64,000 nucleotides of DNA from Candidatus Uhrbacteria bacterium. Its GTDB lineage: Bacteria; Patescibacteriota; Patescibacteriia; JACRJV01. The notes below the pieces were generated by a model. It had not been told where the DNA came from. It searched no databases and worked only from the letters and a program-made list of their open reading frames with translations. Positions 27,185-54,630 of this stretch are shown piece after piece. A program made the position numbers and the translations under genes. Position 1 is the stretch's first letter; each line of letters begins with the position of its first letter. The DNA is taken from the NCBI GenBank assembly GCA_016215325.1, contig JACRJV010000003.1:36191-100190 (forward strand), written 5' to 3'.

Positions 27185-28477
27185 TCATGGCCGTCCGACG
27201 GAGTAATACTGGAACCCCATCTCCCGCATGTGCTGGGCGTCCAACATATTTCGGCCGTCAAAGACGATGGGGCTGATCATCCCCTGCTTGCACGCGGCCC
27301 ATGGCAAGCAGCGAAACTGCGGCCATTCGGTGAGCACCAGCACCGCGTGTGCTCCAGTAAAAACCTCCTCCGCTACCGGACAAACTTGTAACCGTGGAAT
27401 CTCCTGCATCGCTTTGTGCTCTGCCTGCGGATCATAGGCTACCACCCGCGCTCCTTGGTCATGGAGCCACCGGACAATATCAATCGAGGCGGATTGTCGA
27501 ATATCGTCGGTAAAGGGTTTGAAGGAAAGCCCCAGCACGCCGATGGTCTTGTCGCGTACTTCGCCCAAGGTTTTTTTAATCTTGCGGATAAATTGCCGGC
27601 GCTGCGCTTGATTGACTTCGATCACGGCTTTGAGGAGTTTAAATTCGTAATCATGCTCCAGAGCGATCGAATGGAGCGCCTGTGTGTCTTTGGGGAAACA
27701 CGACCCGCCATAACCAATGCCAGAGTGCAAAAATGCGCTGCCGATGCGAGGATCTAACCCCATCCCATACGCTACATCATCGACATTGGCGCCTACCTCA
27801 TCGCAAAGATTGGCGATTTCGTTGATAAACGAAATTTTGGTTGCCAAAAATGCATTCGAAGAATATTTAATAAGCTCGGCGCTGCGACGGTCTGTGACCA
27901 CGCGTTTGCCCGGCAACGGTCTGTGGAGCTCGAGTAGGGCCGAGCGCGCGCGAATGCTCTCGGTCCCAATGACAATACGATCGGGGTTGCGCAGATCGGC
28001 AAGCGCCGTCCCCTCCCGCAAAAACTCTGGGCAGGAAGCAACACTCATTGTTGATTGTTTGGACAGTCTTTTTTGAATAATCGCTTCGACTTTCTCCCCA
28101 GTGCCCACAGGCACTGTGCTCTTATTGACCACCACAGTATGATCTGCAAGCAATGGGGCAATCGTTTCGGCGACGGCAAACACTTGTGACAAATCCGCGC
28201 TGCCATCCTCTCGCGGAGGCGTGCCCACGCAGATCATCACAACAGAAGAGTCAGAGACCGCTCCCGCAAGGTCGGTCGTGGGCCGAAGAGTTCCCCGGTT
28301 AATCGTGTCTCGGACCGCTTCGGAAAGCCCCGGCTCATAGAAATCAACCTCTCCACGCTTGAGGGCTTCGAGCTTTTCGATGCTCCGACGCGCCAAATAC
28401 ACGGTGTGTCCGAGCTCGGCATACACCACTGCACTCGTGAGCCCCACGTATCCGGCGCCGATGATGGTAAGAGTCAT
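27185..28477 (-). CDS. ugd: UDP-glucose 6-dehydrogenase
   Basis: MTLTIIGAGYVGL NAD motif, catalytic GGSCFPKD, 430 aa. Confidence 0.9.
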   Translation of the reverse strand: MTLTIIGAGYVGLTSAVVYAELGHTVYLARRSIEKLEALKRGEVDFYEPGLSEAVRDTINRGTLRPTTDLAGAVSDSSVVMICVGTPPREDGSADLSQVFAVAETIAPLLADHTVVVNKSTVPVGTGEKVEAIIQKRLSKQSTMSVASCPEFLREGTALADLRNPDRIVIGTESIRARSALLELHRPLPGKRVVTDRRSAELIKYSSNAFLATKISFINEIANLCDEVGANVDDVAYGMGLDPRIGSAFLHSGIGYGGSCFPKDTQALHSIALEHDYEFKLLKAVIEVNQAQRRQFIRKIKKTLGEVRDKTIGVLGLSFKPFTDDIRQSASIDIVRWLHDQGARVVAYDPQAEHKAMQEIPRLQVCPVAEEVFTGAHAVLVLTEWPQFRCLPWAACKQGMISPIVFDGRNMLDAQHMREMGFQYYSVGRP

Positions 28478-28574
28478 ACTTAACGCAGCAAGATAAGTAA
28501 ATTAAGTAAAATAAGCCCCGTTTCGGTCGATGCTTGTCTCGCTTATCTTGATTAATTAACTCATCTTGCTAGAT
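28478..28574. repeat. Intergenic hairpin repeat, copy A (inverted orientation relative to B and C)
   Basis: AGCAAGATAAGTAAATTAAGTAAAATAAGC arms around loop CCCGTTTCGGTCGATGCTTGTCTC; core reverse-complementary to copies B and C. Confidence 0.6.
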
Positions 28575-29534
28575 TCAACGAATGAATACCCTGGCAATAA
28601 TCGGAATATACACCAACGCAAAGAGCGTACTTAAAAACACCGCAATCGCCGTCTTCTCCGGGTGGACTTTGAGCTCTGTGGCAAACGCCACCGCATTGGC
28701 CGCAAGGGGCACCACAGAGAGCAACATCATCACATTGAAGATCTCTTGAGTATAGGCATGAATAACAAGTTTGTCCAGAAGAATGACCAGTGTAATTAAC
28801 AGCGGCCAAGCCACAAATTTTGCCAAAAACGCGAGGGTGATAAACCTCATATCCACCGATGCCCAGCGGACAGTCGCAAGCCCCATCCCGACAATCATCA
28901 TCCCTAACAACGTATAAGCTCCCTTAAAATACCCGATAGCCGCCACAATATCCGGTCCCAACGGAATACGGAAAAAATTGAATAGCGCCCCCAACAAAAA
29001 CGCATACACGGTCGGCAGCCGCACCACGCGCCCGATACTCTGGGCGACCGTATGATGTCCGCGCGCGGTCACATAGAAACCCACTGTGTTTTCATAGAGG
29101 ATAATGCCGGTAATGCACAACACCGCAATGCTCAACGCTCCATTGCCAAACAGCACCAACACCATCGGCAACCCAAAGTAGCCGACATTGGCGGCTCCAG
29201 CAGAAAAGGCGAGAATATTTTTCGTGGGGTCATCCTGATAGAACGTCTTACCCAAAACAAAAAAAATTCCACAGAGTATGGAGGCAATCGCAAAAAAAAT
29301 CAGCGGCAAGCTAAAATAGGCGAGCGTCAAGGGCGCCGTCAGGACCCCGTAGAACACCACAACCGGAGCAATCGTATAAATGAGCAGCGACGCCAGAGTT
29401 TCTTTTTGCGCCCCAAGCTTGCGCGCCGCAACAAACCCCAGCACGATGATGGCATAGAGTGGCAGAATCTTGGAAATCAGCGTAAAAAAAACGATCATAC
29501 CGTCTCGAGGTATTCTGAAAGCGCTTCTTGCCAA
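28575..29534 (-). CDS. AEC-family (auxin efflux carrier-like) membrane transporter
   Basis: 319 aa, ~10 TM helices, overall resemblance to the PF03547 membrane transport family. Confidence 0.5.
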   Translation of the reverse strand: MARSAFRIPRDGMIVFFTLISKILPLYAIIVLGFVAARKLGAQKETLASLLIYTIAPVVVFYGVLTAPLTLAYFSLPLIFFAIASILCGIFFVLGKTFYQDDPTKNILAFSAGAANVGYFGLPMVLVLFGNGALSIAVLCITGIILYENTVGFYVTARGHHTVAQSIGRVVRLPTVYAFLLGALFNFFRIPLGPDIVAAIGYFKGAYTLLGMMIVGMGLATVRWASVDMRFITLAFLAKFVAWPLLITLVILLDKLVIHAYTQEIFNVMMLLSVVPLAANAVAFATELKVHPEKTAIAVFLSTLFALVYIPIIARVFIR

Positions 29535-30355
29535 CTGCGCAAGGGGGGCAATTTGGTTGTGCGCAGGATCGAAACCGCCGGGCGGCGGGCTTCGCGCTTG
29601 AGTGAATCAACGAGAGCACGTTCAATCATCGGCACAGCCTTGCCGCGCGCTTTAAGCCCTTCCGCAACCGTACAACCAAACTCATACCAATTGCACGATC
29701 CGTCGTTGGTGCGATGATAGATGCCGCCGGGGTATTTTTTTTCGATCATGTCCAACGATGCGCTCGCAAGGTCATCACTATACGTGGGGGAACTCACCTC
29801 TGCATCAATCAAACGGACTGTCTCGCCCTTCAACAGCCGCTCCACCACGATCTGAGGGAAACTGGGTTTTGAGCCTATCGAACTCCCGCGCGGCCCGAAC
29901 AGCCGGCTGGTGCGGATGCAATAATACCGGAGTCCCGCCTCGCCCATGAGCGCTTGCTCCCCTTCCCGTTTGGATTGACCGTAGGAGCTCAACGGATTGG
30001 GCTCGTCTTCTTCCGAATACCCATTCGGATTGTCACCATCAAAAACGTAGTCTGTGCTGTAGTGGACGAGGAGGATGTCGCGCACCTGGCAGGCGCGGGC
30101 AAGCAACGCCACCGCCCGGGCATTCAATCGCATTGCCGCGTCGCTCTCCTGTTCGGCCCGGTCCACCGCATTGTAGGCAGCGGTGTTGATCAAGACATCG
30201 GGCTTTGCGTGCTCGAGCGCCGACTCGATCGATTCGAGTATGGTAATGTCGCATTCGGCTTTCGAAAAAAACACCGCCGTATGATGCGGTGAGGATGCCA
30301 GTATTCGCTCAAAGGCGTTAGCAAGCGTTCCGCCAGCGCCGGTCAGCAATATCTT
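29495..30355 (-). CDS. rmlD: dTDP-4-dehydrorhamnose reductase
   Basis: MKILLTGAGG, YSTDYVFDG, YGQSK (YxxxK) RmlD signatures; start trimmed to MKILLTG. Confidence 0.85.
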   Translation of the reverse strand, partial: KILLTGAGGTLANAFERILASSPHHTAVFFSKAECDITILESIESALEHAKPDVLINTAAYNAVDRAEQESDAAMRLNARAVALLARACQVRDILLVHYSTDYVFDGDNPNGYSEEDEPNPLSSYGQSKREGEQALMGEAGLRYYCIRTSRLFGPRGSSIGSKPSFPQIVVERLLKGETVRLIDAEVSSPTYSDDLASASLDMIEKKYPGGIYHRTNDGSCNWYEFGCTVAEGLKARGKAVPMIERALVDSLKREARRPAVSILRTTKLPPLRSWQEALSEYLETV

Positions 30356-30458
30356 CATAGCTCGTAAGCAAGATAAGTAGATTAAGCGAGATAAGCTAGA
30401 CAAGCATCAACCCGAACGGGGCTTACTTTACTTAATTTACTTATCTCGCTTATCTTGC
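30356..30458. repeat. Intergenic hairpin repeat, copy B
   Basis: AAGCAAGATAAGTAGATTAAGCGAGATAAGC ... ACAAGCATCAACCCGAACGGGGCTTACTTTACTTAATTTACTTATCTCGCTTATCTTGCTT; nearly identical to copy C. Confidence 0.6.
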
Positions 30459-30914
30459 TTATCGATTCTGGATACTCCAATCAAACCCGATCTTCGGGTC
30501 GTCCCAGGCGATCCGGCCTTCATCAGGGTCCTTCGTGTTATAGGCCTCGGTGGTGTGGTAGAGCAACAACACCGGCTTGGTGCCGAGTACCTGGTAGCCA
30601 TGTGCAACGCCCTTGGGAATGCGGATCGCCAAGGGGTTTTCTTCGCCCGTCACGACGGTGTCGATTTGGCCGCTGGTGGGTGAATCCGACCGAGTATCGT
30701 ATAAGACAACGCGCGCCATGCCTTGCGCAATGTACCAAATATCGTCTTGCTTTTTGTGGAAATGGAACGCCTTAATCACGCCCGGATTAGTGATCGACGC
30801 CGAAGTCTGCTTAACATCCGCAAACACCGGTTCACCGGCCTTGATAATTTCGCGGAAATATCCGCGATCATCCACGTGGGTTTCGAGTTTTTTGATGACG
30901 ACTCCGTTGAGCAT
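30459..30914 (-). CDS. rmlC: dTDP-4-dehydrorhamnose 3,5-epimerase (short cupin form)
   Basis: 151 aa; RGYFREI, HFHKKQDD and VAHGYQVL motifs of RmlC. Confidence 0.85.
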   Translation of the reverse strand: MLNGVVIKKLETHVDDRGYFREIIKAGEPVFADVKQTSASITNPGVIKAFHFHKKQDDIWYIAQGMARVVLYDTRSDSPTSGQIDTVVTGEENPLAIRIPKGVAHGYQVLGTKPVLLLYHTTEAYNTKDPDEGRIAWDDPKIGFDWSIQNR

Positions 30915-31008
30915 AACGTGGTAAGATGAGTAAAATAAGCGAGATAAGCAAGATAAGCTACAAGCATCGACGGAATGGGGCTTACTTTACTTAATTTACT
31001 TATCTCGC
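30915..31008. repeat. Intergenic hairpin repeat, copy C
   Basis: AAGCGAGATAAGCAAGATAAGCTACAAGCATCGACGGAATGGGGCTTACTTTACTTAATTTACTTATCTCGCTTATCTTGCTT. Confidence 0.6.
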
Positions 31009-31935
31009 TTATCTTGCTTTTCGTTGTCGAAACCAAGCTACAGTTTTTTCGATCCCCTCTTCCAGGGCGACCTCTGGATTCCACCGCAATTGCTCCTTGG
31101 CTTTATGGGAATCAATCGCGCTCTTGCGCTGTTCGCCCTCTTTGGCCGGACCATGAGCAATGGAGGGTTTATACCCTGCCGCGCGAGCGACGAGTCGAGC
31201 AACAGTGTTGATAGAGCACTGTCGTCCGGTCCCAATGTTATAGATTCCATTTTTTTTACTCTTTACTGCTGCAATGTTTGCTCGCACGATATCATCCACA
31301 AACACAAAGTCGCGTGTTTGCCGCCCATCACCGTTAATAACGGGCCCACTACCCGTCAGCATCTTCTGCGCAAAGATAGCGATAACGCCTGCTTCACCGC
31401 TGCTATTCTGCCGCGGGCCATACACATTGGCATACCGCAAGGCAACCCATCGGCACCTGCTGCGAGCCCCAGTATAACGGAGATAATGCTCTCCGGCAAG
31501 CTTGCCGATCCCATAGGGTGATGCGGGGGATGGGGCAGCAGATTCTAATGTCGGAAGAGGAGTTCCGTCTCCATACACTGCGCCACCGCTGGACGCAAAC
31601 ACAATGTTCGTTACCCCGGCATGCTCACACGCTGCCAACAGCCGGATGGTCCCCAAAATATTCGTTTGCGCATCAAATACGGGATCCTGGACCGAACGCC
31701 GCACATCCATTTGTGCAGCATGATGGAATACTGCTTGGGGTTTAACGTCACGGACAATTTTTTCCAGTCGAGACGAACGGATGTCGAGCTTGTAGAACAT
31801 TGCCTGTGCATTAATGTTCCGCCGGGATCCCGTTGATAAATCGTCAACGATAACCACGCGATGCTCCTGTGCGATCAGCGCATCAACAATATGGGATCCG
31901 ATAAACCCGGCGCCGCCGGTGACTAATATATTCAT
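31009..31935 (-). CDS. NAD-dependent epimerase/dehydratase, UDP-glucose 4-epimerase-like
   Basis: MNILVTGGAGFIGSH, SGGAVYG, YGIGKLAGE (YxxxK); start trimmed to MNILVTGG. Confidence 0.8.
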   Translation of the reverse strand: MNILVTGGAGFIGSHIVDALIAQEHRVVIVDDLSTGSRRNINAQAMFYKLDIRSSRLEKIVRDVKPQAVFHHAAQMDVRRSVQDPVFDAQTNILGTIRLLAACEHAGVTNIVFASSGGAVYGDGTPLPTLESAAPSPASPYGIGKLAGEHYLRYTGARSRCRWVALRYANVYGPRQNSSGEAGVIAIFAQKMLTGSGPVINGDGRQTRDFVFVDDIVRANIAAVKSKKNGIYNIGTGRQCSINTVARLVARAAGYKPSIAHGPAKEGEQRKSAIDSHKAKEQLRWNPEVALEEGIEKTVAWFRQRKAR

Positions 31936-31940
31936 AATAT

Positions 31941-33045
31941 TTACAATTTTTCCGACTTCCGCCATCTCAGATACGCCTCCTCAAACGCCATCAAATCTCC
32001 GTCCAACACTTCATCTGGTTGCCGGCTTTCATATTCTGTCCGATGGTCCTTCACCAGTTTATACGGCTGCAGAACATACGACCGAATTTGGTTGCCCCAC
32101 TCCGCACTCACCAACTCACCGCGAATGGCATTGCGCTGCTTCAATTCTTCCTGCCGCTTTCGCTGAAGCAGCCGAGCCTTTAAAATACTCATGGCCGTTT
32201 CTTTATTTTGCAGCTGGCTGCGTTCATTCTGGCAGCTCACAGTGATCCCGGTGGGAAGATGCACAACGCGAACGGCGGAATATGTTGTTTGCACCGATTG
32301 CCCTCCATGACCGCCGGACAAAAACGTATCAATGCGCAAATCCTTGGGATCAATCTCAATGTTATCGACAGCTTCCAGTTCGGGCATTACTTCGACCATG
32401 GCAAATGAGGTATGCCGCATTTGTTCTGCGTCGAACGGGGAAATTCGGACCAAGCGATGAACGCCATGCTCGCCTTTGAGCCACCCGTACGCCGTCTGAC
32501 CGGTCACCGCAATCGTCACATTTTTAATCCCAGCAATGTCGCCGGGCGTTCGGTCGATTGTCCGCGCCGAATACTCTAACCTCCCGATAAATTTGGTCAT
32601 CATGCGCTCAAGCATTTGCGCCCAGTCCATGGCTTCGGTCCCCCCCGAGCCGGCATAAATCGTGACAATGGCGTTGCGATGATCATATTGCTCATCAAAG
32701 AAGAGGGCAAATTCCATGGTACCCAAATCTCCTTCTAGGCGGGCCGCATCGCTTTTGAGCTCGTCCAAGAGCGTGACATCGCGCTCTTTAGCATCCTCTT
32801 GGGCGATTTCCAGCGCGCCCAGAATGTCCCCATGGAGTCGTTCCCATCGCTCAATTTCTTTTGCAATTGCACTCGCGGTCTTTGAGATATTGCCAGCACG
32901 GGATGAATTAGCCCAAAAATCGGGTTCATTCATTTGCGTTTGCAGTCCGATTAATTGTTCCTTTTTCCCAGCAATGTCAAAGAAACCCCCCCAGGTCTTC
33001 TGCCCTGTGGAGGAGGAGAGTTAATTGTTTGATGATTTCATCCAT
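31941..33045 (-). CDS. prfB: Peptide chain release factor 2, with programmed +1 frameshift
   Basis: SPF tripeptide (RISPFDAE) and GGQ motif; upstream short frame MDEIIKQLTLLLHRAEDLGGFL ends at CTT TGA C preceded by GGGGGGG (minus strand; plus coords ~32974-32992), +1 frame continues DIAGKKEQLIGLQTQMNEP. Confidence 0.85.
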
Positions 33046-35991: not shown

Positions 35992-36012
35992 GTATTGACT
36001 TATTAGTTTACT

Positions 36013-36047
36013 CGTTTATTCGAGTTCGCTAAACGAGTAAATCAATA
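36013..36047. promoter_or_regulatory. Perfect 12-bp inverted repeat upstream of ftsZ
   Basis: TTTACTCGTTTA-(11 nt)-TAAACGAGTAAA, 22-56 nt upstream of the ftsZ start on the minus strand. Confidence 0.3.
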
Positions 36048-36190
36048 CACCAATAATCAGTAAATCAATGGATGCGTTGTCACTGTAACATAATTCACCA
36101 TTACAGGGCAACTCCTGAAAATTGCTTACATCAGAGCCGATTTCACGTTTTTACAGCGTCCGCCGAAACAACGATGTGCGCCCTCTCTCC

Positions 36191-37827: not shown

Positions 37828-37905
37828 AATCAATTTCAAATTTTAGATTTGAGATTTTAGATTGTCTGTTGCAGTAATCCGCAATCGTCAACCTAAAATC
37901 TGCAA
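37828..37905. promoter_or_regulatory. Conserved intergenic motif copy 1 (upstream of dgkA)
   Basis: ATTTTAGATTTGAGATTTTAGATT...AATCCGCAATCGTCAACCTAAAATCTGCAAT; ~90% identical to a second copy at 51784-51866. Confidence 0.4.
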
Positions 37906-39586: not shown

Positions 39587-42500
39587 TTACGGTTTATTGA
39601 GGCGCAACAAATTGGCATTGCACCCATTTGCTCCAATAGATTTGGCAACATTCGAAGCAACACCGTTGACAAACGGGCCGGGAGTCAGTGCGCTAAACGG
39701 ATCCCCAATCTCCCGGTCGCGGCTAAACCCAGGACGACTGGACGGCCATACCTCAAAGAATGTTCCCAAATACCCATCGGCGATAGATGGTACGTTATTC
39801 GGGCCTTTTGCGCTATAGACATACGCGCGAGCATTGCCGGCACTGGGGCATTGGAAGTTTTTTGCTGCCTCATCCCAGCACGTTTGCGGGTCGTGCGGAC
39901 GATTGCATCCGACAAAGTAATTGAGTGGATCACTTGCGATCCGCGGCCCTCCATCAAGATTCTCTTTCAGGGTCTCCTGCCAGCTCGGCCACGTACTGTA
40001 GCTTAACCCACGAATGAACGTCCCGGCGGTGAGTTCGGGGAATTTGCTGTTTTGCGTGGCATAATTCTTGAGACGCACTTCCAAATCACGCAAGTCAGAA
40101 GCCCGCCGCACATCGCGTTTTAGCGCAGTGCGCACCCCAGGATCGTCAATATTAAGCGCGAACTTCCAACGATTGAGCAGCTGTGGGACAACGGATTGCA
40201 TTTCTTTGCGGGCATCCTTTGTGATCGAGAGCAGATACACGTTCGTAAAGAGCTGCTTATATCGTGAACGGGCAGTCATACCATCAGAACCGACAACTGT
40301 ATTATCAAGCACGTCATCATCGCGCAAGCGGGCCATTGTATAATACCACGTATCCCCTTCCTGGATACCATCCACGCAGTCTTCGCCCTCGGGCAATGTC
40401 GGTGCGTAGGTCCGTCGATTCTGGCAATCAATACTGCTGACGCTCGCGCGGTCGGCGCGAGGATTTACAACCGCGTTCGACTCCAAATACCAGCGAGCCG
40501 CGGAGAATTGTTGGCCATTTTGCATCACCGTGAGAGCAATCAAATCAGGCGCACCTGGTTCTCGGAAGTAGAATTGCTTCAATCGCTGGCTGGCAGGGGT
40601 TCGAAGCCGCGGCAATTCGACGCTTTGCAACCGAAGATCTGGCAACAACTTGGGCATTGCGTAGACTTTAATCGAGCTCAATATTCCGGATGCACCCTCA
40701 TTGTCTGCAATGCGATACCGCGGTTCGATGGATTGCGAAATGGGCGCCACCGGCACATTCAAGCCGCTCCCCTGCCGAAGCCATGTTACACTCACCGGCA
40801 TGACCATCGTCCTGGAGAGGGTCCCTTGGCCTACCGTCACCGTGATGTTGGCCGTACCGTTGCCAACAGAACTGATGGCGAGTTGCTCGCTCCCGAGCCC
40901 CGGCTCATCCTGTCCGGAGTGGATTCTGACAATGTTGTTGTTGCCGTCAGATGATGCCCAGGTATAGGTCAGTCCGGTCTTAATTTGTGTGCCATTTTGA
41001 TCGTAGCCCTCTACCTTAAATAAGTGTTGATTTCCCGCTGTCGCCGGATCATCGTCGTCGCTACAGCGATCGCCCACACACGAAAATGCATCACTGCGCA
41101 CTTCTTCCAACGGCACTCCATCGCGGCAGTACCCAATCGAGAACGATTGATATTGACCATTGATGCTCTGTTCCCCCGGAATCCGGCTGAAGTTACCGCT
41201 GCGCAAATGCATGGTCGCGTCATACTGATTAAAGAGGAAGCGATTGGCATAATCTCGAGTGTCGTCAAAGGGGAATGCCCCCACTTGCGATGGCCAGGGA
41301 TGCTCACAGGGGAAGACCTCAACATTAAGTGAGCGCGTTGCCGATGTCCCACCTTGCGCATAAACGCCATCGCCCTCCGCGGTAAATCGAATCGTCGATG
41401 TCCCAGCATCCCCATTTGCGGTGACATACACGCCGCTTAATCGATTGCTTGCATGGATCGAATTGGGCAAAACAGTCCATTGCGCAGATGTGCTTGGCTT
41501 TGGCTCGAGACGCTGATAGAAGCCCAATTGTTTGTTGAGCATATTGGCGGGCGTACCGCTCAAATCCGACAATGTGAGGAGGGTATCGAGCCGCGGATTT
41601 GAAGGGATCACCTCTGCGCGCACATCCAGCCATAACGGTTGTGTGCCTTCTTGATCGGCATAGGCTTGCAAAAGATAACGATGTTGAACACCCGTCCGCC
41701 CTTTGAGCCCATAATAGCAATTCTCCCACTGCGCGAACGGATCGGACGCGCTGTAATTGATGAGCCGGCTCATTGCCTGCCAGTAGTCCGCCGCTGCCGG
41801 GTCCGGACATACGGTATTTGCGGGCCCATCCATGTCATCAGGGCAGGTATCACGACCAGCGCACAAGAAACTGTCGCTATAGATATTAGTAAGTGGTAAC
41901 TCCTCGTCGGCCGTTGTTGCCCGCTGCAACCGCAGCTGGCGCAACATACCAAGGCTTTGCGGCGCGATAAGATCCAATCGCTTCACTTCGCCGCCAAGCC
42001 CTATGGTCAATGAATTATTCGTCTCGTCTGTTTCTTCCACGGATCGCAACCCATCAAGATCAAGGCGAACCGACCGATATGTTGCGAGTGATTGTGTCGG
42101 ATCCTGGAAGACAACATCCACCACCGCATCCGGATCGAGTGGAGAATCCAGCGGCGGGATCACTCCGGAGCCACCCGGAATGGGGGTTGCAAACGTTGAC
42201 TCTTTAAATATTCCATTTTCATACAATAAGGCGGCAAAATTCTGTGTCACCACCCCAGGCCCCAGGTTGATGGCCCGGAACTTCAGCTTCCATATCCCGC
42301 CTTCTTCAAACCGTTCAAAGGGGCTGGCGGTAAATGCCAAATCCGGAAGATTGCGACCCACAATAACCTGACGACCATTGTTTTCTTCGTCGGATTCTTG
42401 GATCATGTTGTCGCGATAGCTTGGATTCCCCCGTATCTGCGTGACAACATATTCAGAACTCGAATCTGGAAAAACTTCCGTATCCTGATCCAACGAATCC

Positions 42501-45500
42501 AGGACCACGCGCAATGCATTCGGTTGGTTCACATTAATATCAGATGGCAAGATAAATTGCAGCGTCAGTGTTGCGCCAGGATCCATCCGCTTCGGCTCTT
42601 GTCTTGGCCATGTATCGAGCCACAAGAGTTTGTTGTTCCAATAGATGCTCACCGGGAAATCCCGCATTGCAGCGATGGACCCTTGATTTTTTATGACCAC
42701 CTGTCCATAGTGCGTCCGCCGTATCATACCGGAACAAACGGGTAAATTTGCACTCGCGCCATCACAAGTCAACGCGCTTAACGATTCGATTGTAAGGTCG
42801 GGGAGCCGCGGCCCTTGATCAATCCCCGCATACGCCAAGGTGATCCAATTATTGACGGACGATCCGGCGCTACTGAATCCTGGCAGGCCCCATGCCGATA
42901 TTCCCAAATACCCTTCGGGATAGTTATGGGCGATGGCAATCTCCGGCAGTGAATTAACGCGGATCTGCGAATCCGCACGGTCGCCGTTTACTTCGAACGC
43001 AAGGTTCGTAAAGGATCCAATCCACCAGTCTAGCGCGGCCTCAATTTCATGGGCATCCCGTTGCTCGTCGCTCGTGGGCGTCGCGATATCGTAGACACGG
43101 ATACGGTACTGATGTTGTGCTTGCCCATCGCGCGCGTACTCGTCTCTGCCGCCAGTGGGGAACGGCCGATTCTGGGAATCGAAGATTTCAACCGACCGAA
43201 CCAATGGCAACGCAACCGTGACCCGCATGGTTTTGCGCGCCGAACGACCATTGATTTGCCGCGCGATCACGGTCACATCAAAGCTGCCGTTGTCTACCGG
43301 CGTTGCGAACAAATCATCCCCTTGATTGGTGCTCTGCCGTTGATGATTGCTTAACTGAACGCCCGCGACACCCGAAGAACCTTGTCCAACAGCCCACTCG
43401 AACGACGCATCGAGCCGACAATCACCATCGGCACTGCAGGCTTGCGCACTCCACCGATGTTGCACTCCCGGATCAGAACCCCGATCATCGGCGCAACGCG
43501 TCCCCCCACAGGCAAACGAGTCGCTCGTTGCCGGGGTATCAGGGCCAGGATCCACAATAATGTTGACATGATCGAGCAGTTTCGGTCCCGGACCAATTTC
43601 CATGGTCGCAGATGCGTTATTGGAAAGCTCGGAATCGCCCACAGCATTATAGGCAAGGATGCGGTAGTGATAGGGGACATCCTGTTGCACGGTCCGATCG
43701 CGGTAGTCTCGCTCCATGGGGTTGACAAATGTCGCCACCAGACAGAAGGCGCCGCTGCCAGAACCGGGAGTTGTCGGACAGGGATTGGTGGGCAGAGGTA
43801 ACTCCGGCTCATCAGCAATAACGGAATCATCCCTGTACAAGCGGAATCCGAGCACCCCCGGACCAGAAGGATGCGGTGACCATTCGAGCGCAATCGTCCC
43901 GTCATCCGCCCATGCGCTTAAATTTGGTCGGTACGGTTCTGTTCCGTCATGTTCGCAATCCGGACAAATTTTACCACTGGCCGGGTCGGATAATGGCGAG
44001 AGTCCCCACTCGTTATAGGCCAAGATGCGATAATGATAGAGGAGATTCGATCGCACAGCGTCATCGCCGTATCGTGTTTGACTGCGGTCAAATACGCCGA
44101 CCAAACAGAGTTGATCGCCAGCGGCCGAGCCTTGAGCGCCGCACGAGGTGGTCGGCAGCGTCGCGAGCTCATCGGGGATCGGCTGGCGGGATCGATACAA
44201 TCGATACTCGTCAAATGGGGCACCCTCGGTATTCGGCAGCCATCGCACTTCAACCGCCTGGCCGTCATCCGTGGCCGAAAGATCGTCCGGTTTAAACGGG
44301 GCCATCCCGATCACTGTGGCGCACTCTTCTATTGTCGCTTCCCCTTCGCCCATCGCATTATAGGCGGCAACCTGATAACACATCACGGACCCCGGGGCGA
44401 GCCCTTCGTCATCGATCACCGTCTCGCTTACTTGTCGTAAGAAAGCAAAACTCCCGCCGTTGCCGTTGCGGCGATAGATGCGGAATCCCAGAATTGCACC
44501 CGTGCCCGATGAGGCCGGAGCTTGCCATCGGATCGTCGCGTGCTCCACGAGTCCTTGGACGGTCAGTGTACGAGGGACTCCTGGCACTTCACCCACCGCC
44601 GTGGGGGTCGCACATTCTTCGCTCGCGGCAACGCCTTCGCCTTGCTGATTATGGGCGCTTACCGCATAGCAATAGACGCGGCCGTTGGCAAGCCCAGAGT
44701 CCTCCAGACGAAGATTCGTGAGCGTCGTCACATCCTTCAAATAGATCAGCGCTCCGTCGTTGCCTTCACGGCGATACACCGTGTACTTGCCAATCGCAGT
44801 CGTGCCGGCGCTTGCAGGCGCTTCCCATGTGAGGACGATGCGGCGATCCAATCCATCCGCAACAACATTCCGTGGCATTCCTGGAACCACCCCCGACGCC
44901 GTTGGAGTTGCGCACCGTTGGTCGGTGACCTCCCCTTCGCCGTGACCGTTCACCGCAGAAACGGCGTAACAATAGACAGTGCCGTTCTCCAGGTTCGCGT
45001 CGTCAAGCAAGAGCGCTGCCGCATTGTCAACATTTCTATAAAAAACCTGCTCTCCGGCATTGCCCACCTTGCGATACACCGTATACTGATCGATGGGAGA
45101 TGAACCGGCGGAAAGCGGTGGCTGCCATGTAATGCGGATGTTCTCATCCGCGGGAGCTGCCGCCAAGTTCCGAGGAATGCCCGGGACGCTATTGCAGGTC
45201 GTACACATGCTCGCGCTAGCGGGATTGGACAACGGCGAATCCCCGACACCATTATACGCCAGGATACGATAATGGTAGACAGTATCCGGCTTTACCGCAC
45301 CATCAACAGCGGTTTCGGCATCTTCCGCAATTGTTGCAGGAACCAAGCAGAACGCATCACTGGCAGTGCTCGCGTTTGCCCCGCAAGAATCGGTCGGCAA
45401 CGAGGTCGGCGCATCCGGGATTGCTTGGCGCGATCGATACAATCGGAACCCTGTCGGCCTCGCTCCCGCAGGACTCACAGACCACGAGAGCGTAAGCGCA

Positions 45501-48500
45501 GCGGCATTGAGCGGACTATTGGTTGCGGTTAAATCCTGGGGCGCAAACGGCGCACCACTGCCGCCGTCCTCGTATTGGCACGTTGCGTCGCATCCATCGC
45601 CATTATTGCGGTTGCCATCATCGCACTGCTCGCCGGGATTAATGGCATTGTTGCCACATAGCTGCGGGTTCTCTAACTCGCATTGTGCGCTGCATCCATC
45701 GCCATTGCTGGTATTGCCATCATCGCACTGCTCGCCGCTATCGATATCCCCGTTGCCGCACGAAGGTCCTGTGCCAATTGTTGCCTTGGCAAATGCATTA
45801 TTCGAGGACGGCGAGTCACCGGCATCGTTGAATGCGAGAATACGGTAGTGATAGATGGTCCCCACAACTACTGCTTGATCAGAGTAATCTTGTGCAGACT
45901 CCTCAAACCGCGACACAAAACAAAATGCAGCGCTTGCGGATGCAGAATCGGTGCCACAGGAAACAGTCGGCAGATTTTCCACTTCGTCCGGTATGGCCTG
46001 GGTGGAACGGTACAGTCGATACCCTTTGGGCGCAGCCCCGTTGGAATTGGATTGCCACACAAGGTGAACACTGCCCGCGCCCTCTGTCGCAGAAAGTACG
46101 GGCGGGAATGGACGCGTTCCATCCTTGCCGCAGGTGGGGCATGCCTTGGCGCTGGCAGGATTTGAGAGCGCCGAATCCCCATCCGCGCCAATCCCAAGAA
46201 TGCGATAATGATACAAAACGTTGGATGTAACGGCGCGGTCGCGATATTCGCGATCCCCTGCCGCAAGGGCACCACTGGCGAGACAGAATGCATCGCTGGC
46301 ATTTTCTTGGCTTGTTCCGCAAGAAACGGTTGGCAACGGCAATGCCGGCTCATCCGGGATTTGGGATCGGGATCGGTACAATCGATATCCGGTCGGCTGT
46401 GGGCCTTGGCTGTTGGGATCCCATTGGATAATGGTGGCGGTTACTCCATCGGTCGCGGTGAGCGTGGGCGGGAATGGTTCGGCGCCCGTGTGGCCACACG
46501 TCGAACAGGTTTTTGCGCTGCCCGCATTGGAAAGCGCGGAATCGCCCGCATCGTTATATCCCAAAATACGGTAGTGGTAGAGCGTATTGGGCTTAATTGC
46601 TCCATCATTGTAATGACGGATATTGCCTTCGAATTGACTCACTCGGCAGAATTCGTTATTAGCATTGCTCGCATTGTTCCCGCAAGAAACGGTCGGCAAC
46701 GATACAGGAGCGTCGAGTATAGGCTGAGTGGATCGATAGAGAGTGAACCCTATTGGCTGGGGCCCATACGGATTCGGGACCCAATCTACGGCGATCCGGC
46801 TGCTTCCATCCGTTGCTGCAAGGTCCGGTGGATATGGTACCGTTTCTTGCCCTTCGGTGCGCTGGCATGTATTCGTACAACCAACACCCGATTTTCCATT
46901 TTGTCCCCCGGCATCGCACTGCTCGCCCGGATCAACTCGATTGTTCCCACACAGCTTAGCGTCTTCTAATTGACACGAACCACTGCACCCATCCCCATCG
47001 CTAGTGTTGCCATCATCGCATTGTTCTCCTCGGGCAGATTGGACCGTCCCATCCCCGCATTCTTCCCCATAACATTGATCTCCAATCAAGACAGGACGCT
47101 CAAGTGGGCAATCAACTACGTTGCACACTTGGCAATCAGCTCCACCGCAATCAATGCCCGTCTCGTCGGCATCTTGGATGCCATTGGCGCAATGCCCTCC
47201 TCCCAGTCCTCCGCAAGAGCGGCAATCTGCCCCTCCGCAATCCACATTGGTCTCATCCGCATCCCTGCGCAAATTAGTACAGTGGCCGCCCACACAGGTG
47301 TTGGTGACTGGATCGCAGGTTTGCCCGTTTTGGCAATCGACATCGGATCGACATTGCGGTGGTCGGCATGACCCGTCGATACATTGCATGCCATACGGGC
47401 AATCCACATCAGTGGAACACAGCGGCACGCAAATGTTGAGCAGCGTGTTGCAGATTTCGCCATCGCGGCAATCATCGTTGCTATCGCAACCCGGGGGCCG
47501 GCATTGTCCAGAACGCAGATCACAAATAAATCCAGGGCGGCAATCGCTGTCTGCCCGACATTCTTGCCCATTATCCGCGCTCTGGCACCGACCGTTGACG
47601 CAGCGGCCGAACGGGCAATCGGCATCCACCGAGCATTGGAGATCTCGACTCGTTAATATATCAAACGGCAACCCATTGGAGGCGACCTCTGCTTGATCGG
47701 ACACTGTCTTCAACCCCCATGGGCACACGCCACGGAAGGTGACCCAACGGCATTCTTGTCGGATGTTGTAGTGGATCACGGTGCGCAATACGACGTCGTC
47801 GCTTTCGGCGGAATCTGGCACTCGCCATCGCACGCTTTCGGGCGTCCAGCTTTGATAGCGCGCATCGAGCCGACCAAGGGTAACCCCCCGAGCATCGGAA
47901 GCCTTACCAAAACGCACACCGCGCGCGACAATAGAATCACCCGTCAATCCATACGATGGGATCAGCCGACAGAGCCCAGGACCAATCGGATCTTGCGTCA
48001 GCGTGAACGCCCCGCTCTGTTGCGGTTTGGTGGTGAGCGCGCCCGCCGGGGTGGTCGGAGCGGTTGTCAACCGAACCAATCCATTTTTTGCGCCCTTGGG
48101 GATTTGGACAATAACCCAGCGATCAGACCACGCAGATCCCGCACACTCTTCCGGCAATATGGCTTGGGCGTCGTCCGTGGGATCTTTGGGGTCTCCTTCA
48201 AAAATCACTTTGCCCGGCACATATCCAAAATTTCCACCGATGATCGTCATCCACCCGCCCTCTGGGCCCCGGTCTGGACTCAAATGATCAATAAACGGGT
48301 CCATGGTAAATGTCACAGGGTTAGATTGGTTCTTGACGACCGTTGCAAGGACATACCCCGTACGCGACCGATTGGGCACCTCCACTTCTGCGCTCGCATC
48401 GGACCACGAACCATATTTCTCCACCGGAATGCCAATAAATTTTACAACGCTGTCTTGGCGCGTATCGCCCAAGTTGTCACCACGCAACGCAACCGGGTCG

Positions 48501-49894: not shown

Positions 49895-49995
49895 GAATGA
49901 TCTAATAATTTATTCATTTCTTAGTTTATTGTGTCGCGCCCGATCAATACATTAATAAACCAATAAATGAGTAAACAATTAAACCAATAAATATG

Positions 49996-51525: not shown

Positions 51526-51765
51526 TCAACGCGAAAATTTACGTTTCTTGGGTTCTGGCAATTTTCCAATCCGGGCCAGATATTCATTGTGGCTGACAAC
51601 ATCGTTCCGACGCAACGCTGACTCTCGCTGTTGTGCTTTGCTTTTTGGACTTTTGTAAAAACGGATCTTCCGCGCTTCGATCAACCGTCCGCTTTGGATG
51701 AGAACACGGTTAAACCGTCGCAAGAATCCTTCGAACGCTTCTCCTTTTTTTCGTTTGACGAGCAT
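51526..51765 (-). CDS. rpsU: 30S ribosomal protein S21
   Basis: Basic 79-aa protein LRRFNRVLIQSG...IEARKIRFY; perfect SD AAGGAGGTGA 7 nt upstream of ATG at 51765. Confidence 0.8.
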   Translation of the reverse strand: MLVKRKKGEAFEGFLRRFNRVLIQSGRLIEARKIRFYKSPKSKAQQRESALRRNDVVSHNEYLARIGKLPEPKKRKFSR

Positions 51766-51783
51766 ACTAATCACCTCCTTCAA

Positions 51784-51866
51784 AATTCATTGCAAATTTT
51801 ATATTTGAGATTTCAGATTATCCATTATTAATGAATCTGCAATCGGCAATCTAAAATCTGCAATAA
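51784..51866. promoter_or_regulatory. Conserved intergenic motif copy 2 (upstream of rpsU), contains TAAAAT -10-like box
   Basis: ATTTTATATTTGAGATTTCAGATT...AATCTGCAATCGGCAATCTAAAATCTGCAAT; shares ~75-nt core with copy 1. Confidence 0.4.
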
Positions 51867-54272: not shown

Positions 54273-54346
54273 TGGGTGCATCTGGACTCGAACCAGAGAC
54301 CTCTGTCGTGTGAGGACAGCGCTCTAACCAGCTGAGCTATGCACCC
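54273..54346 (-). tRNA. tRNA-Val (anticodon CAC)
   Basis: 74-nt cloverleaf: GGGTGCA acceptor, D-arm GCTC/GAGC, anticodon stem CTGTC/GACAG with loop CTCACAC, T-arm TCTGG-TTCGAGT-CCAGA; no encoded CCA. Confidence 0.8.
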
Positions 54347-54477: not shown

Positions 54478-54630
54478 GGACGCTCTGGTGCCCGATGGAA
54501 TTTAGCGAGGACTGTCTGATGCGAACCACGACTGGCGGCCGTTGATTGCGGTCGGTGCCGGTCGTGGTGGTACCGATCAACGATCGGGACGCAAGTTCCG
54601 CAGCAAATCCCATCGGGCACCAGAGCGTCC
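54478..54630 (+). other. 151-nt GC-rich structured element bounded by perfect 21-bp inverted repeats (candidate ncRNA or MITE-like element)
   Basis: GGACGCTCTGGTGCCCGATGG at 54478-54498 and its exact reverse complement at 54610-54630; internal nested stems (CGTTGAT/ATCAACG, ACCACGAC/GTCGTGGT, GGGAC-GCAA-GUUCC hairpin); G-U pairs favour plus-strand RNA. Confidence 0.35.

What the first reader, a model, noticed from the sequence alone, without database searches (positions are those of the whole stretch)
28478..31008. Three copies of a ~95-bp hairpin-forming intergenic repeat punctuating the rmlC/rmlD/transporter/ugd genes
Every intergenic gap in this 2.5-kb stretch is filled by the same element. 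Its arms are built from AGATAAG-like heptamers (AAGCAAGATAAGTA.ATTAAG...ATAAGC) and flank a conserved loop core ACAAGCATC.AC..GAA.GGGGCTTAC. Copy A is inverted relative to B and C. The genes lack Shine-Dalgarno sites. The elements could be transcript-processing or stability hairpins, attenuators, REP-like sequences or a small MITE family.
Basis: seen in the sequence. Interest (0 to 1): 0.5.

Follow-up and report, generated by a model that had tools for sequence, protein, structure and literature searches.

The report
Foldback repeat family in CPR bacteria
The three hairpin repeats are real, and they are gene-less copies of a widespread, apparently undescribed family of selfish palindromic DNA elements that sit between genes in tiny-genome "candidate phyla radiation" bacteria and resemble the intervening sequences known from ribosomal RNA genes.

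Summary
Three copies of a roughly 95-nt imperfect palindrome fill the only three non-zero spacers of a co-directional sugar-nucleotide operon in a Candidatus Uhrbacteria (CPR/Patescibacteria) genome. The arms are tandem 9-nt units (AAGYRARNY), not heptamers.

The copies are not a local curiosity. One cross-family pattern found 99 metagenome loci carrying the same architecture, in Nomura-, Portnoy-, Buchanan- and Uhrbacteria. These elements lie between co-directional genes, a median of 6 nt upstream of the next ATG, and often supply the upstream gene's TAA. They occur in either orientation and never between convergent genes.

Occupancy of orthologous junctions differs between related genomes. 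A copy at a non-orthologous junction of a relative is 92-95% identical to the window copies, while third codon positions are only 55-61% identical.

Longer relatives carry a PF05635 "23S rRNA intervening-sequence protein" gene between the same kind of arms.

Best reading: these are ORF-less foldback or IVS-like selfish elements. I infer that they are co-transcribed, fold into long stems and are likely RNase III substrates. I found no evidence for attenuators, promoters, terminators or guide-RNA arrays, and no RNA-level covariation or strand bias.

Verdict: a new variant of a known kind, of moderate to high interest.

The parts
28478..28574 (-). Copy A. It fills the whole spacer between the transporter stop (TGA, 28575-28577) and the ugd start (ATG, 28475-28477). 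Family orientation (AAGCGAG arm first) is on the minus strand, so A is inverted relative to B and C.
   Evidence: nhmmer E = 2e-28; alignment A1; fold -33.3 kcal/mol, z = -3.9 on the minus strand.
28487..28516 (.). Copy A, arm 1 (AGCAAGATAAGTAAATTAAGTAAAATAAGC). It pairs with 28541-28570. The loop core is 28517-28540.
   Evidence: Inverted pair I2: 30 nt, 83% complementary, 24-nt loop.
28541..28570 (.). Copy A, arm 2.
   Evidence: pair I2.
30362..30463 (+). Copy B, between rmlC and rmlD. The outermost unit contains the rmlC stop codon (TAA, 30459-30461). The rmlD ATG (30359-30361) lies 6 nt beyond the stem.
   Evidence: nhmmer E = 5e-30; fold -44.0 kcal/mol, z = -5.7 on the minus strand; sequence read.
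30365..30396 (.). Copy B, purine arm on the + strand (AAGCAAGAT AAGTAGATT AAGCGAGAT AAGC). It pairs with 30421-30452. The loop is 30397-30420.
   Evidence: Inverted pair I1: 32 nt, 81% complementary; 9-mer phase.
30421..30463 (.). Copy B, pyrimidine arm on the + strand (GC TTACTTTAC TTAATTTAC TTATCTCGC TTATCTTGC TTATC). 41 nt of it are identical to copy C.
   Evidence: (family D1).
30915..31022 (+). Copy C, between the epimerase and rmlC. The epimerase stop (TAA, 31009-31011) and its last 3-4 codons lie inside the arm. The rmlC ATG is at 30912-30914.
   Evidence: nhmmer E = 5e-27; fold -37.0 kcal/mol, z = -6.0 on the minus strand; sequence read.
30929..30957 (.). Copy C, purine arm on the + strand. 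It pairs with 30990-31018. The loop is 30958-30989, which has one more 9-nt unit than copy B.
   Evidence: Inverted pair I4: 29 nt, 83% complementary; alignment A1.
30990..31022 (.). Copy C, pyrimidine arm on the + strand.
27185..28477 (-). ugd (UDP-glucose 6-dehydrogenase), the gene downstream of copy A.
   Evidence: Pfam PF03721, PF00984 and PF03720.
28575..29498 (-). AEC-family (Mem_trans) transporter. Its start overlaps the rmlD stop (ATGA). It is upstream of copy A.
   Evidence: Pfam PF03547; 100% identical to an NCBI protein named AEC family transporter [Candidatus Uhrbacteria bacterium].
29495..30361 (-). rmlD, downstream of copy B.
   Evidence: Pfam PF04321, E = 1e-72.
30459..30914 (-). 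rmlC, between copies C and B.
   Evidence: Pfam PF00908.
31009..31935 (-). NAD-dependent epimerase/dehydratase, upstream of copy C. Its start is 5 nt after the RF2 stop, and this junction carries no element here, whereas the relative L003 has one.
   Evidence: Pfam PF01370 and PF16363; junction comparison.

Best explanation
The three repeats are ORF-less members of a dispersed family of palindromic ('foldback') selfish elements of Patescibacteria (CPR).

Anatomy. Each element is two inverted arrays of tandem 9-nt units (AAGTAAATY, AAGCGAGNY or AAGCAAGAT and their complements) around a short loop. The family colonises intercistronic spacers in either orientation. Unit arrays change rapidly between related genomes.

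In relatives the same arms bracket a PF05635 '23S rRNA intervening-sequence protein' gene. The architecture (terminal inverted-repeat stem plus an optional S23p/IVP ORF) is therefore that of bacterial rRNA intervening sequences, placed here in mRNA spacers.

How it most likely works (inferred):
- The element is co-transcribed with the operon and folds back on itself into a 30-40-bp stem.
- This brings the upstream stop codon, which is often the element's own in-phase UAA, to within a few nucleotides of the downstream AUG.
- The 95-nt insertion therefore barely changes the effective stop-to-start distance in a genome that does not use Shine-Dalgarno sites.
- The long duplex is a likely RNase III substrate. 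Cleavage would excise the element or cut the polycistronic mRNA, as RNase III does for rRNA intervening sequences.

Shown here: family membership, dispersal, occupancy polymorphism, context rules and the IVP-carrying relatives.

Inferred, not shown: transcription through the element, RNase III cleavage, any effect on expression, and the mobility mechanism.
For: 1. Family and dispersal. One pattern built from features shared by the window and a relative found 99 metagenome loci and 0 viral contigs. Nearly all are palindromes of in-phase 9-mers. The hosts identified are Cand. Nomura-, Portnoy- and Buchananbacteria, and the window is Uhrbacteria. Density reaches 6 elements per 15 kb in L003.

2. 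Occupancy polymorphism. Relative L003 has the same gene order and 64-84% coding nt identity. It has elements at htrA-RF2 and RF2-epimerase, where the window has 14-nt and 5-nt spacers. It lacks one at transporter-ugd, where the window has copy A. L005 has a 1-nt spacer at that junction.

3. The element is more conserved than neutral sites. The window copies are 92-95% identical to the L003 copy at the non-orthologous YbeY-DAGK junction. Third codon positions are 55-61% identical, and the elements at the orthologous rmlC-rmlD junction are only 64-67% identical.

4. Both orientations occur. The split is 26:18 relative to gene direction, and 3:3 within the window's subfamily. Stability shows no sense-strand bias: sense is more stable in 19 of 44, Wilcoxon p = 0.26. 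No pair shows a compensatory change, 0 of 26. This is what copies of a DNA element predict.

5. Composition. Window copies are 36-39% GC against 51% for the window. Family-wide the medians are 31% against 42% for the host contigs.

6. IVP link. L151 5484-5855 matches PF05635 with E = 1e-37 and lies exactly between 9-mer arms. Six of seven independent Patescibacteria IVP loci are bracketed by inverted arrays of 7-, 8- or 9-nt units, and all seven lie between co-directional genes. L136 carries a decayed IVP remnant in its loop.

7. Literature. rRNA intervening sequences are selfish, have inverted-repeat stems, optionally encode S23p and are cut by RNase III (PMC4990558). PF05635 ORFs occur in insertions in CPR rRNA genes (PMC11270868).

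8. Context geometry. The downstream ATG lies a median of 6 nt after the arm. The upstream stop is TAA in 39 of 57 cases, most often the TAA of the first AAG|TAA unit.
Against: - No transposase, RAYT, RNase III or IVP gene lies in the 64-kb window.
- No target-site duplication can be read from the three filled-versus-empty comparisons, because the flanks are too diverged.
- Only three copies occur in 64 kb, all in one operon, so local spread or gene conversion cannot be separated from transposition in this genome.
- The source genome is not in the collections I could scan. A window-specific 21-mer found nothing genuine among GTDB species representatives.
- All three window copies fold better on the sense strand, by 2.4 to 9.1 kcal/mol, which hints at RNA-level selection locally.
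- The absence from convergent junctions (0 of 48 against 11% expected, p about 0.004-0.009) is not predicted by purely neutral insertion.
- Family consensus features are partly imposed by my search pattern.
- The IVP link rests on shared arm units, not on an IVP-bearing copy of the window's own subfamily.
- No transcript data were available.
Confidence: 0.65

Rival explanations
1. The hairpins are selected intercistronic RNA devices of the operon. They would set relative expression of neighbouring cistrons through RNase III or RNase E processing, 3'-end protection, or translational coupling. In the coupling version, a ribosome terminating at the UAA in the 5' arm melts the stem base and exposes the AUG just 3' of the stem.
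For: - Strict placement between co-directional genes, with the stop codon in or at the 5' arm and the ATG a median of 6 nt after the 3' arm.
- None of 48 elements lies at a convergent junction.
- All three window copies fold better on the sense strand.
- The genome lacks Shine-Dalgarno sites, so coupling would matter.
- Two junctions (epimerase-rmlC and rmlC-rmlD) are occupied in both the window and L003, though by different subfamilies.
Against: - No sense-strand bias across 44 junction elements.
- Both orientations occur.
- No compensatory substitutions.
- Presence or absence differs between close relatives at housekeeping junctions.
- Spacers in these compact genomes are so short when empty (1-14 nt) that any intergenic insertion must abut a stop and a start.
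- The same units also occur as one-armed, in-frame arrays inside coding regions.
Confidence: 0.2
2. The arrays are DNA or RNA binding sites for a sequence-specific protein, for example the pentameric four-helix-bundle IVP/bAvd-like protein or a nucleoid or replication factor. The 9-nt unit would be the recognition module, and the palindrome a by-product of paired site arrays.
For: - Specific units (AAGTAAATY, AAGCGAGNY) recur across several candidate phyla.
- The pyrimidine arm is nearly invariant in six copies from at least four contigs.
- One-armed arrays exist.
- IVP genes sit physically inside such arrays.
Against: - Unit conservation is partly imposed by the search pattern.
- IVP-flanking arrays use unrelated units of 7, 8 or 9 nt in different loci, which argues for structure or repetition rather than one recognition code.
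- A 9-bp period does not match the helical repeat.
- No binding data exist for PF05635 proteins of this type.
Confidence: 0.1
3. The repeats are a purely local tandem or segmental duplication within this one operon, with no wider family.
For: Only three copies occur in 64 kb, all within 2.5 kb. Copies B and C share a 41-nt identical arm.
Against: The same subfamily, including the loop core, lies at a different junction in another species (L003 1147-1232) and in L191 and L222. There are 99 family loci in metagenomes.
Confidence: 0.02
4. The repeats are guide-RNA or regulatory arrays (TIGR- or CRISPR-like), or sigma-70 promoters, or intrinsic terminators.
For: Short periodic units with a 9-nt module recall the 9-nt spacers of TIGR arrays, which are common in CPR (PMC12045711). 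TTGAYT-like hexamers recur in the pyrimidine arm.
Against: - There is no 36-nt unit of alternating edge and loop repeats, no UG...CCA boxes and no Nop-domain Tas gene in the window.
- There is no promoter-like or terminator-like match at the elements on the gene strand, and no U-tract.
- The elements are never found at convergent junctions.
- Rfam has no match.
Confidence: 0.03

Closest known systems
Bacterial rRNA intervening sequences (IVS) of 23S rRNA helices 9, 25 and 45, for example in Coxiella, Leptospira and Salmonella; PF05635/S23p-encoding IVSs
   Same: A terminal inverted-repeat stem of about 28-40 bp. AT-richer than the host. Sporadic, polymorphic distribution. ORF-less and ORF-bearing forms. 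The ORF-bearing relatives found here encode the same PF05635 family. IVSs are regarded as selfish and are excised by RNase III (PMC4990558). PF05635 ORFs occur in rRNA insertions of CPR (PMC11270868).
   Different: The elements here sit in spacers between protein-coding cistrons, not in rRNA helices. None of the loci checked with Rfam has one inside an rRNA gene. The arms are arrays of tandem 7-9-nt units. RNase III excision is not shown. The window copies carry no ORF.
Foldback (FB) transposons of Drosophila and other eukaryotes (recalled from my own knowledge, not tested)
   Same: Long inverted terminal repeats that are themselves built of short tandem units. Many copies consist of the inverted repeats alone, and a minority carry internal coding sequence. 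Unit number varies quickly.
   Different: Eukaryotic, kilobase-scale and associated with a transposase in the long forms. No homology is implied.
Bacterial MITEs co-transcribed with operons: Correia elements (Neisseria), ERIC/IRU, RUP, and REPINs/REP-BIME
   Same: About 100 nt, imperfect palindromes, intergenic, in both orientations and in many copies. From the literature I recall that Correia and ERIC hairpins are co-transcribed and cut by RNase III or RNase E and alter mRNA stability.
   Different: No sequence similarity (Rfam: nothing). No TA or other target-site duplication is visible. No conserved GTAG or RAYT, and no parent IS with a transposase. The arms are unit arrays. The hosts are CPR bacteria.
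Rickettsia palindromic elements (RPE) and mycobacterial MIRUs (recalled from my own knowledge)
   Same: RPEs insert in-frame in coding genes, and one-armed 9-mer arrays here are read in-frame as SKSSETSKSS in L194 and L197. MIRUs are intercistronic repeats whose ends overlap the flanking stop and start codons.
   Different: RPEs are 100-150-nt unique palindromes without unit arrays. MIRUs are direct 46-101-nt repeats that encode small ORFs, not hairpins.
TIGR arrays (TIGR-Tas, PMC12045711)
   Same: Common in CPR. Short periodic repeats with a 9-nt module. Some variants are stem-loop arrays.
   Different: [quoted passage not shown] None of these features is present here.

Membership tests
MITE (non-autonomous TIR element) | Short (<300 bp), non-coding, with terminal inverted repeats | tested here: met
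   95-108 nt; arms of 29-32 nt at 81-83% complementarity; no ORF.
MITE (non-autonomous TIR element) | Many dispersed copies, with insertion polymorphism between related genomes | tested here: met
   99 metagenome loci; up to 6 per 15 kb in L003; filled versus empty junctions in window, L003 and L005. Within the 64-kb window there are only 3 copies.
MITE (non-autonomous TIR element) | Target-site duplication flanking each copy | tested here: inconclusive
   No direct repeat is evident at A, B or C, or in three filled-versus-empty comparisons. The flanks are only about 70% identical, so exact boundaries cannot be set.
MITE (non-autonomous TIR element) | An autonomous parent IS that shares the TIRs and encodes a transposase | tested here: not met
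   No transposase in the window. The only longer forms found carry a PF05635 gene, not a transposase. Whole genomes were not searchable.
rRNA intervening sequence (IVS) | Located in a 23S or 16S rRNA helix | tested here: not met
   All window copies and 44 of the 48 family copies that have a called gene on both sides lie between co-directional protein genes. Rfam on 16 loci shows none inside an rRNA gene.
rRNA intervening sequence (IVS) | Terminal complementary sequences forming a long stem, with ORF-less and S23p/PF05635-bearing forms | tested here: met
   Stems. PF05635 ORF between 9-mer arms in L151 and L225, and between other unit arrays in L128, L231, L237 and L241. The window copies are the ORF-less form.
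rRNA intervening sequence (IVS) | Excision by RNase III without re-ligation | not testable with these tools
   Needs transcript end-mapping or an in vitro RNase III assay.
REP / REPIN | A 20-40-nt palindrome with a conserved 5' GTAG, mobilised by a RAYT (Y1 transposase) | tested here: not met
   No GTAG-type head in the consensus. No PF01797-type gene in the window (Pfam).
TIGR array | Alternating edge and loop repeats (8-12 nt) with 9-nt spacers, an about 36-nt period and box C/D (UG...CCA) motifs | tested here: not met
   The period is 9 nt, every unit begins with AAG, the arms are mutually complementary, and there are no UG...CCA boxes (compared with PMC12045711).
TIGR array | An adjacent Nop-domain Tas gene | tested here: not met
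   No Nop-domain hit in any of the scanned window ORFs. The 3435-aa ORF was not scanned.
Intrinsic terminator | A GC-rich hairpin followed by a U-tract, enriched at the 3' ends of transcription units | tested here: not met
   No terminator-like hit at the elements. The stems are AT-rich and lack a U-run. 0 of 48 elements lie at convergent junctions.
Known Rfam RNA family | A match at gathering score | tested here: not met
   The only hit in the window is a tRNA-Val.

The most novel reading that the evidence does not exclude
PF05635 ('23S rRNA intervening-sequence protein', bAvd-like) genes bracketed by inverted arrays of short tandem units would be the full-length form of a previously unrecognised class of prokaryotic foldback mobile element. 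This class would colonise both rRNA helices (the classical IVSs) and intercistronic mRNA spacers. It would be phenotypically tolerated because its RNA folds out of the way and is excised by RNase III. The IVP pentamer would be its mobility or maintenance factor and would recognise the unit arrays. The three window hairpins would be non-autonomous copies. This would give a function to a large orphan protein family and a mechanism for how IVSs spread.
Probability: 0.3. Interest if true: 0.8.

Novelty: new variant of a known kind. Interest (0 to 1): 0.6.

Why it matters
CPR/Patescibacteria have tiny, tightly packed genomes, and their repeat content has hardly been described. I found an abundant element family (up to one per 2.5 kb in some contigs) that lives exactly at cistron junctions, donates stop codons, leaks into coding regions as in-frame Ser/Lys/Glu-rich linkers, and differs between close relatives.

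This matters in four ways:
- Gene calling. Stops and starts lie inside the repeats.
- Assembly and binning. These are palindromic, AT-rich, variable arrays.
- Operon expression in organisms that appear not to use Shine-Dalgarno sites.
- The unresolved question of what rRNA intervening sequences and their PF05635 proteins are and how they move.

The third and fourth points are directly testable with existing groundwater metatranscriptomes and simple RNase III and EMSA assays.

Tried and rejected
- Window-specific 21-mer (GGGGCTTAYTTTACTTAATTT) against GTDB species representatives. The single hit is a chance match in a Bacteroidales terminator.
- Exact-protein look-ups for RmlC, RmlD and the transporter. 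These are not on record. ugd gives only a 4-kb Logan contig of the same organism.
- Broad periodic pattern (AAGYRARNY x3) on viral contigs. It is non-specific and is saturated by hits, many in giant-virus contigs, which I took to be coding repeats without inspecting them. I discarded loci L006-L125.
- TIGR-Tas arrays. I considered these because of the 9-nt module and the CPR host, and rejected them on anatomy and the lack of a Tas gene (Pfam calls).
- Sigma-70 promoter or intrinsic terminator. No matches above chance at the elements.
- RNA-level selection tests. The sense-versus-antisense MFE comparison over 44 junction elements is negative. RNAalifold on six subfamily copies shows 0 compensatory pairs.
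- Elements inside rRNA genes. None in the 16 loci scanned with Rfam.
- Phage carriage. The cross-family pattern finds 0 viral contigs.
- Target-site duplications. None is readable.
- Literature searches for CPR palindromic repeats or MITEs, and for intercistronic PF05635 elements. No description was found in the held library.


Full report
**1. The observation**

Three related sequences lie at window 28478-28574 (A), 30362-30463 (B) and 30915-31022 (C).

A profile built from them finds only these three in 64 kb. Their E-values are 5e-30 to 5e-27, and the next hit has E = 0.5. A 13-mer from the arms matches 14 times against 1.2 expected, and 0 of 100 shuffles reach that count.

A is inverted relative to B and C.

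All genes here are on the minus strand. By Pfam they are an NAD-dependent epimerase/dehydratase (31009-31935), rmlC (30459-30914), rmlD (29495-30361), an AEC transporter (28575-29498) and ugd (27185-28477). rmlD and the transporter overlap (ATGA), so the elements fill every non-zero spacer in this stretch.

On the gene strand each copy folds into a 30-40-bp stem: -33 to -44 kcal/mol, z = -3.9 to -6.0.

The arms are not heptamer-based. They are tandem 9-nt units in a fixed AAG phase: AAGCAAGAT, AAGCGAGAT, AAGTAAATT, AAGTAAAGT and their complements.

The TAA stops of rmlC and of the epimerase lie inside the outermost unit of the 5' arm. The next ATG follows the 3' arm by 3-9 nt.

Shine-Dalgarno motifs are indeed absent, but they are absent throughout the window.

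**2. Organism and orthologous loci**

The transporter is 100% identical to an NCBI protein of 'Candidatus Uhrbacteria bacterium'.

A relative, L003 (GCA_900217965.1), has a transporter 73% identical to the window's and the same gene order from ybeY to ugd. Its spacers carry analogous hairpins built from other 9-mers: AAGTAAATC, AAGCGAGGC, and GCTTGACTC repeated four times.

Junction occupancy differs between the two genomes:
- L003 has elements at htrA-RF2 and RF2-epimerase, where the window has only 14-nt and 5-nt spacers.
- Both genomes have elements at epimerase-rmlC and rmlC-rmlD, but of different subfamilies (64-67% identity at rmlC-rmlD).
- The window has copy A at transporter-ugd. L003 has an unrelated 222-nt GC-rich insert there, and L005 has a 1-nt spacer.

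L003's ybeY-DAGK junction carries a copy of the window's own subfamily, including the loop core. It is 92-95% identical to A, B and C. Coding DNA is 64-84% identical between the two genomes, and third codon positions are 55-61% identical.

At that same ybeY-DAGK junction the window has a different hairpin made of 7-nt units.

**3. A large family**

I built a pattern from features shared by the window and L003: AAGCGAGNYAAG, then 15-45 nt, then TTTACTNNATTTAC. It found 99 metagenome loci and no viral contig.

Nearly all hits are palindromes of in-phase 9-mers. That property was not demanded by the pattern.

Exact-protein look-ups place seven of these contigs in Cand. Nomura-, Portnoy- and Buchananbacteria. 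An eighth locus, L151, is Nomurabacteria.

A PWM of the unit gives 0-1 arm hits in each shuffled window, against 6 real arms. Applied to the loci, it detects further elements in the same contigs, up to six in 15 kb.

I compiled 85 unique two-armed elements:
- The median length is 89 nt.
- The median GC is 31%, against 42% for the host contigs.
- An ATG opening an ORF of at least 60 codons lies a median of 6 nt beyond the pyrimidine arm.
- The upstream stop is TAA in 39 of 57 cases, most often the TAA of the first AAG|TAA unit.

Of the 48 elements with both neighbours called, 44 lie between co-directional genes, 4 between divergent starts and none between convergent ends. Convergent junctions make up 11% of gene pairs in these loci (p about 0.004-0.009).

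Orientation relative to transcription is 26:18.

**4. Tests for RNA-level selection**

- The three window copies fold better on the sense strand. Across 44 junction elements there is no such bias: sense is more stable in 19, antisense in 25, Wilcoxon p = 0.26.
- In six aligned copies of the window's subfamily, none of 26 pairs shows a compensatory change. The pyrimidine arm is almost invariant, while the other arm accumulates mismatches and wobbles.
- No promoter-like or terminator-like site coincides with the elements on the gene strand.
- Rfam has no match.

These results fit copies of a DNA element better than a selected RNA motif.

**5. Dynamics of the arrays**

Near-orthologous contigs L163 and L186 have flanks I estimate at about 92% identical from the alignment. 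They carry elements at the same junction with different unit orders and 10 to 12 or more copies of CTTRATTTA.

One-armed arrays also occur inside genes, read in the one open frame. An example is ...SKSSETSKSSKSSETSKSSEAS... in an FtsK-like protein, L194.

**6. Link to intervening-sequence elements**

In L151 (identical to L214) the two 9-mer arms are about 370 nt apart. They bracket, codon to codon, a 123-aa ORF that matches PF05635 '23S rRNA intervening-sequence protein' with E = 1e-37 and is also bAvd-like. L136 holds a decayed remnant of such an ORF in its loop.

I then examined seven independent Patescibacteria PF05635 loci. In six of them the ORF is bracketed by inverted arrays of tandem short units:
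- AAG-type 9-mers in L151 and L225.
- CAG-type 9-mers in L231.
- TAAGCNNA 8-mers in L237 and L241.
- TAGGCNC 7-mers in L128.

The seventh locus, L240, has only a downstream hairpin. All seven ORFs lie between co-directional genes.

Published work describes rRNA IVSs as selfish elements bordered by inverted repeats. These form a stem cut by RNase III, and some encode this same protein family (PMC4990558). PF05635 ORFs have also been found in insertions in CPR 16S and 23S genes (PMC11270868).

I found no description of intercistronic versions or of unit-array arms in the held literature.

**7. Interpretation**

The window's three hairpins are ORF-less members of this foldback or IVS-like family.

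Shown here:
- Their anatomy.
- Family membership by shared units.
- Dispersal across lineages.
- Junction polymorphism.
- High cross-genome identity at non-orthologous sites.
- Orientation independence.
- IVP-bearing relatives.

Inferred: they are transcribed within the long minus-strand gene run, fold back, and are tolerated because the fold places the stop and the next start a few nucleotides apart. The 30-40-bp duplex is a likely RNase III substrate.

The avoidance of convergent junctions and the local sense-strand bias leave room for a real effect on expression of the downstream cistron. This is the main rival, which I put at about 0.2.

The mobility mechanism is unknown. I saw no transposase and no target-site duplication (Pfam).

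**8. Other candidates**

- TIGR arrays were rejected on anatomy and the lack of a Tas gene.
- A purely local duplication is refuted.
- Classical MITE membership fails on the parent-IS criterion and is inconclusive on target-site duplication.
- IVS membership fails on location, although the architecture is the same.
- Drosophila foldback transposons are the closest architectural analogue (my own knowledge).

**9. Verdict**

This is a real feature and a new variant of a known kind (palindromic selfish element, IVS-like). The mechanism is plausible but untested. Interest 0.6.

Noticed in passing
window 51526-51765 (minus), upstream 51772-51780: A small ORF matches ribosomal protein bS21 just under Pfam's cut-off (26.4 bits against 27; E = 6e-6). 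It is preceded by the only AAGGAGGT in the whole 64-kb window, 7 nt before its ATG, while essentially no other gene has a Shine-Dalgarno motif. From my own knowledge this parallels Bacteroidia, where the anti-SD is sequestered and rpsU alone keeps a strong SD for autoregulation.
   Followed up: partly
window about 32975-33000 (minus strand): The prfB (RF2) programmed +1 frameshift site CTT TGA C is preceded by GGGGGGG. It is conserved in L003, so the anti-SD is functional although SD-led initiation is not used.
   Followed up: partly
window 37840-37905 and 51787-51866: A second hairpin family is built of 7-nt units (GATTGCA GATTTTA GATTGCC ...). One copy sits at the ybeY-DAGK junction, where relative L003 has a 9-mer element of the window's own subfamily. 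The other sits in the spacer upstream of rpsU.
   Followed up: partly
window 49895-49995: A 101-nt AT-rich (26% GC) hairpin of about 8-nt units (TTTATTGG TTTAATTG TTTACTCA ...) lies immediately upstream of a 3435-aa giant ORF (39587-49894). It looks like a third unit-array family.
   Followed up: no
window 35993-36055: A hairpin in the ftsA-ftsZ spacer (26-nt arms, 81% complementary) contains TTGATTTACTCG, the terminal unit of L003's 9-mer family.
   Followed up: no
window 61617-61645 (minus strand): The secD-like gene ends in a mini-array, AATAAACC AATAAACC AATAA, whose last TAA is the stop codon and directly abuts the ATG of secF. This is a one-armed unit array that supplies a C-terminus and a stop.
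   Followed up: no
window 54478-54630: A GC-rich inverted repeat (26-nt arms, 96% complementary, 101-nt loop) lies in the 450-nt divergent region next to tRNA-Val (54273-54346). It is unrelated to the AT-rich families.
   Followed up: no
L194 4108-4206; L197 695-766 and 1607-1678; L186 around 3400: 9-mer unit arrays lie in-frame inside protein-coding genes, read as SKSSETSKSS..., SEASKASELS... and similar. L186 also has a 30-nt insertion, relative to L163, in the sequence flanking the element, and the insertion contains unit-like sequence. This resembles Rickettsia palindromic elements.
   Followed up: partly
L003 10925-11146 and L005 1-25: A different, GC-rich structured insert (222 nt, -98 kcal/mol) occupies the transporter-ugd junction in L003. 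It contains CCCTGCCTGCGGCAGGCAGG, and a near-identical motif begins contig L005. This suggests yet another repeat family in these genomes.
   Followed up: no
L237 2501-2854; L241 1501-1869; L240 1501-1869: PF05635 genes are inserted between the small and large subunit genes of a NiFe hydrogenase and inside sugar-nucleotide operons of other Patescibacteria. This shows that the ORF-bearing elements also target cistron junctions.
   Followed up: partly
L226 1-1815 and L229 1-1808: The gyrA-like gene next to an IVP element carries an intein with a LAGLIDADG domain, according to precomputed Pfam hits.
   Followed up: no
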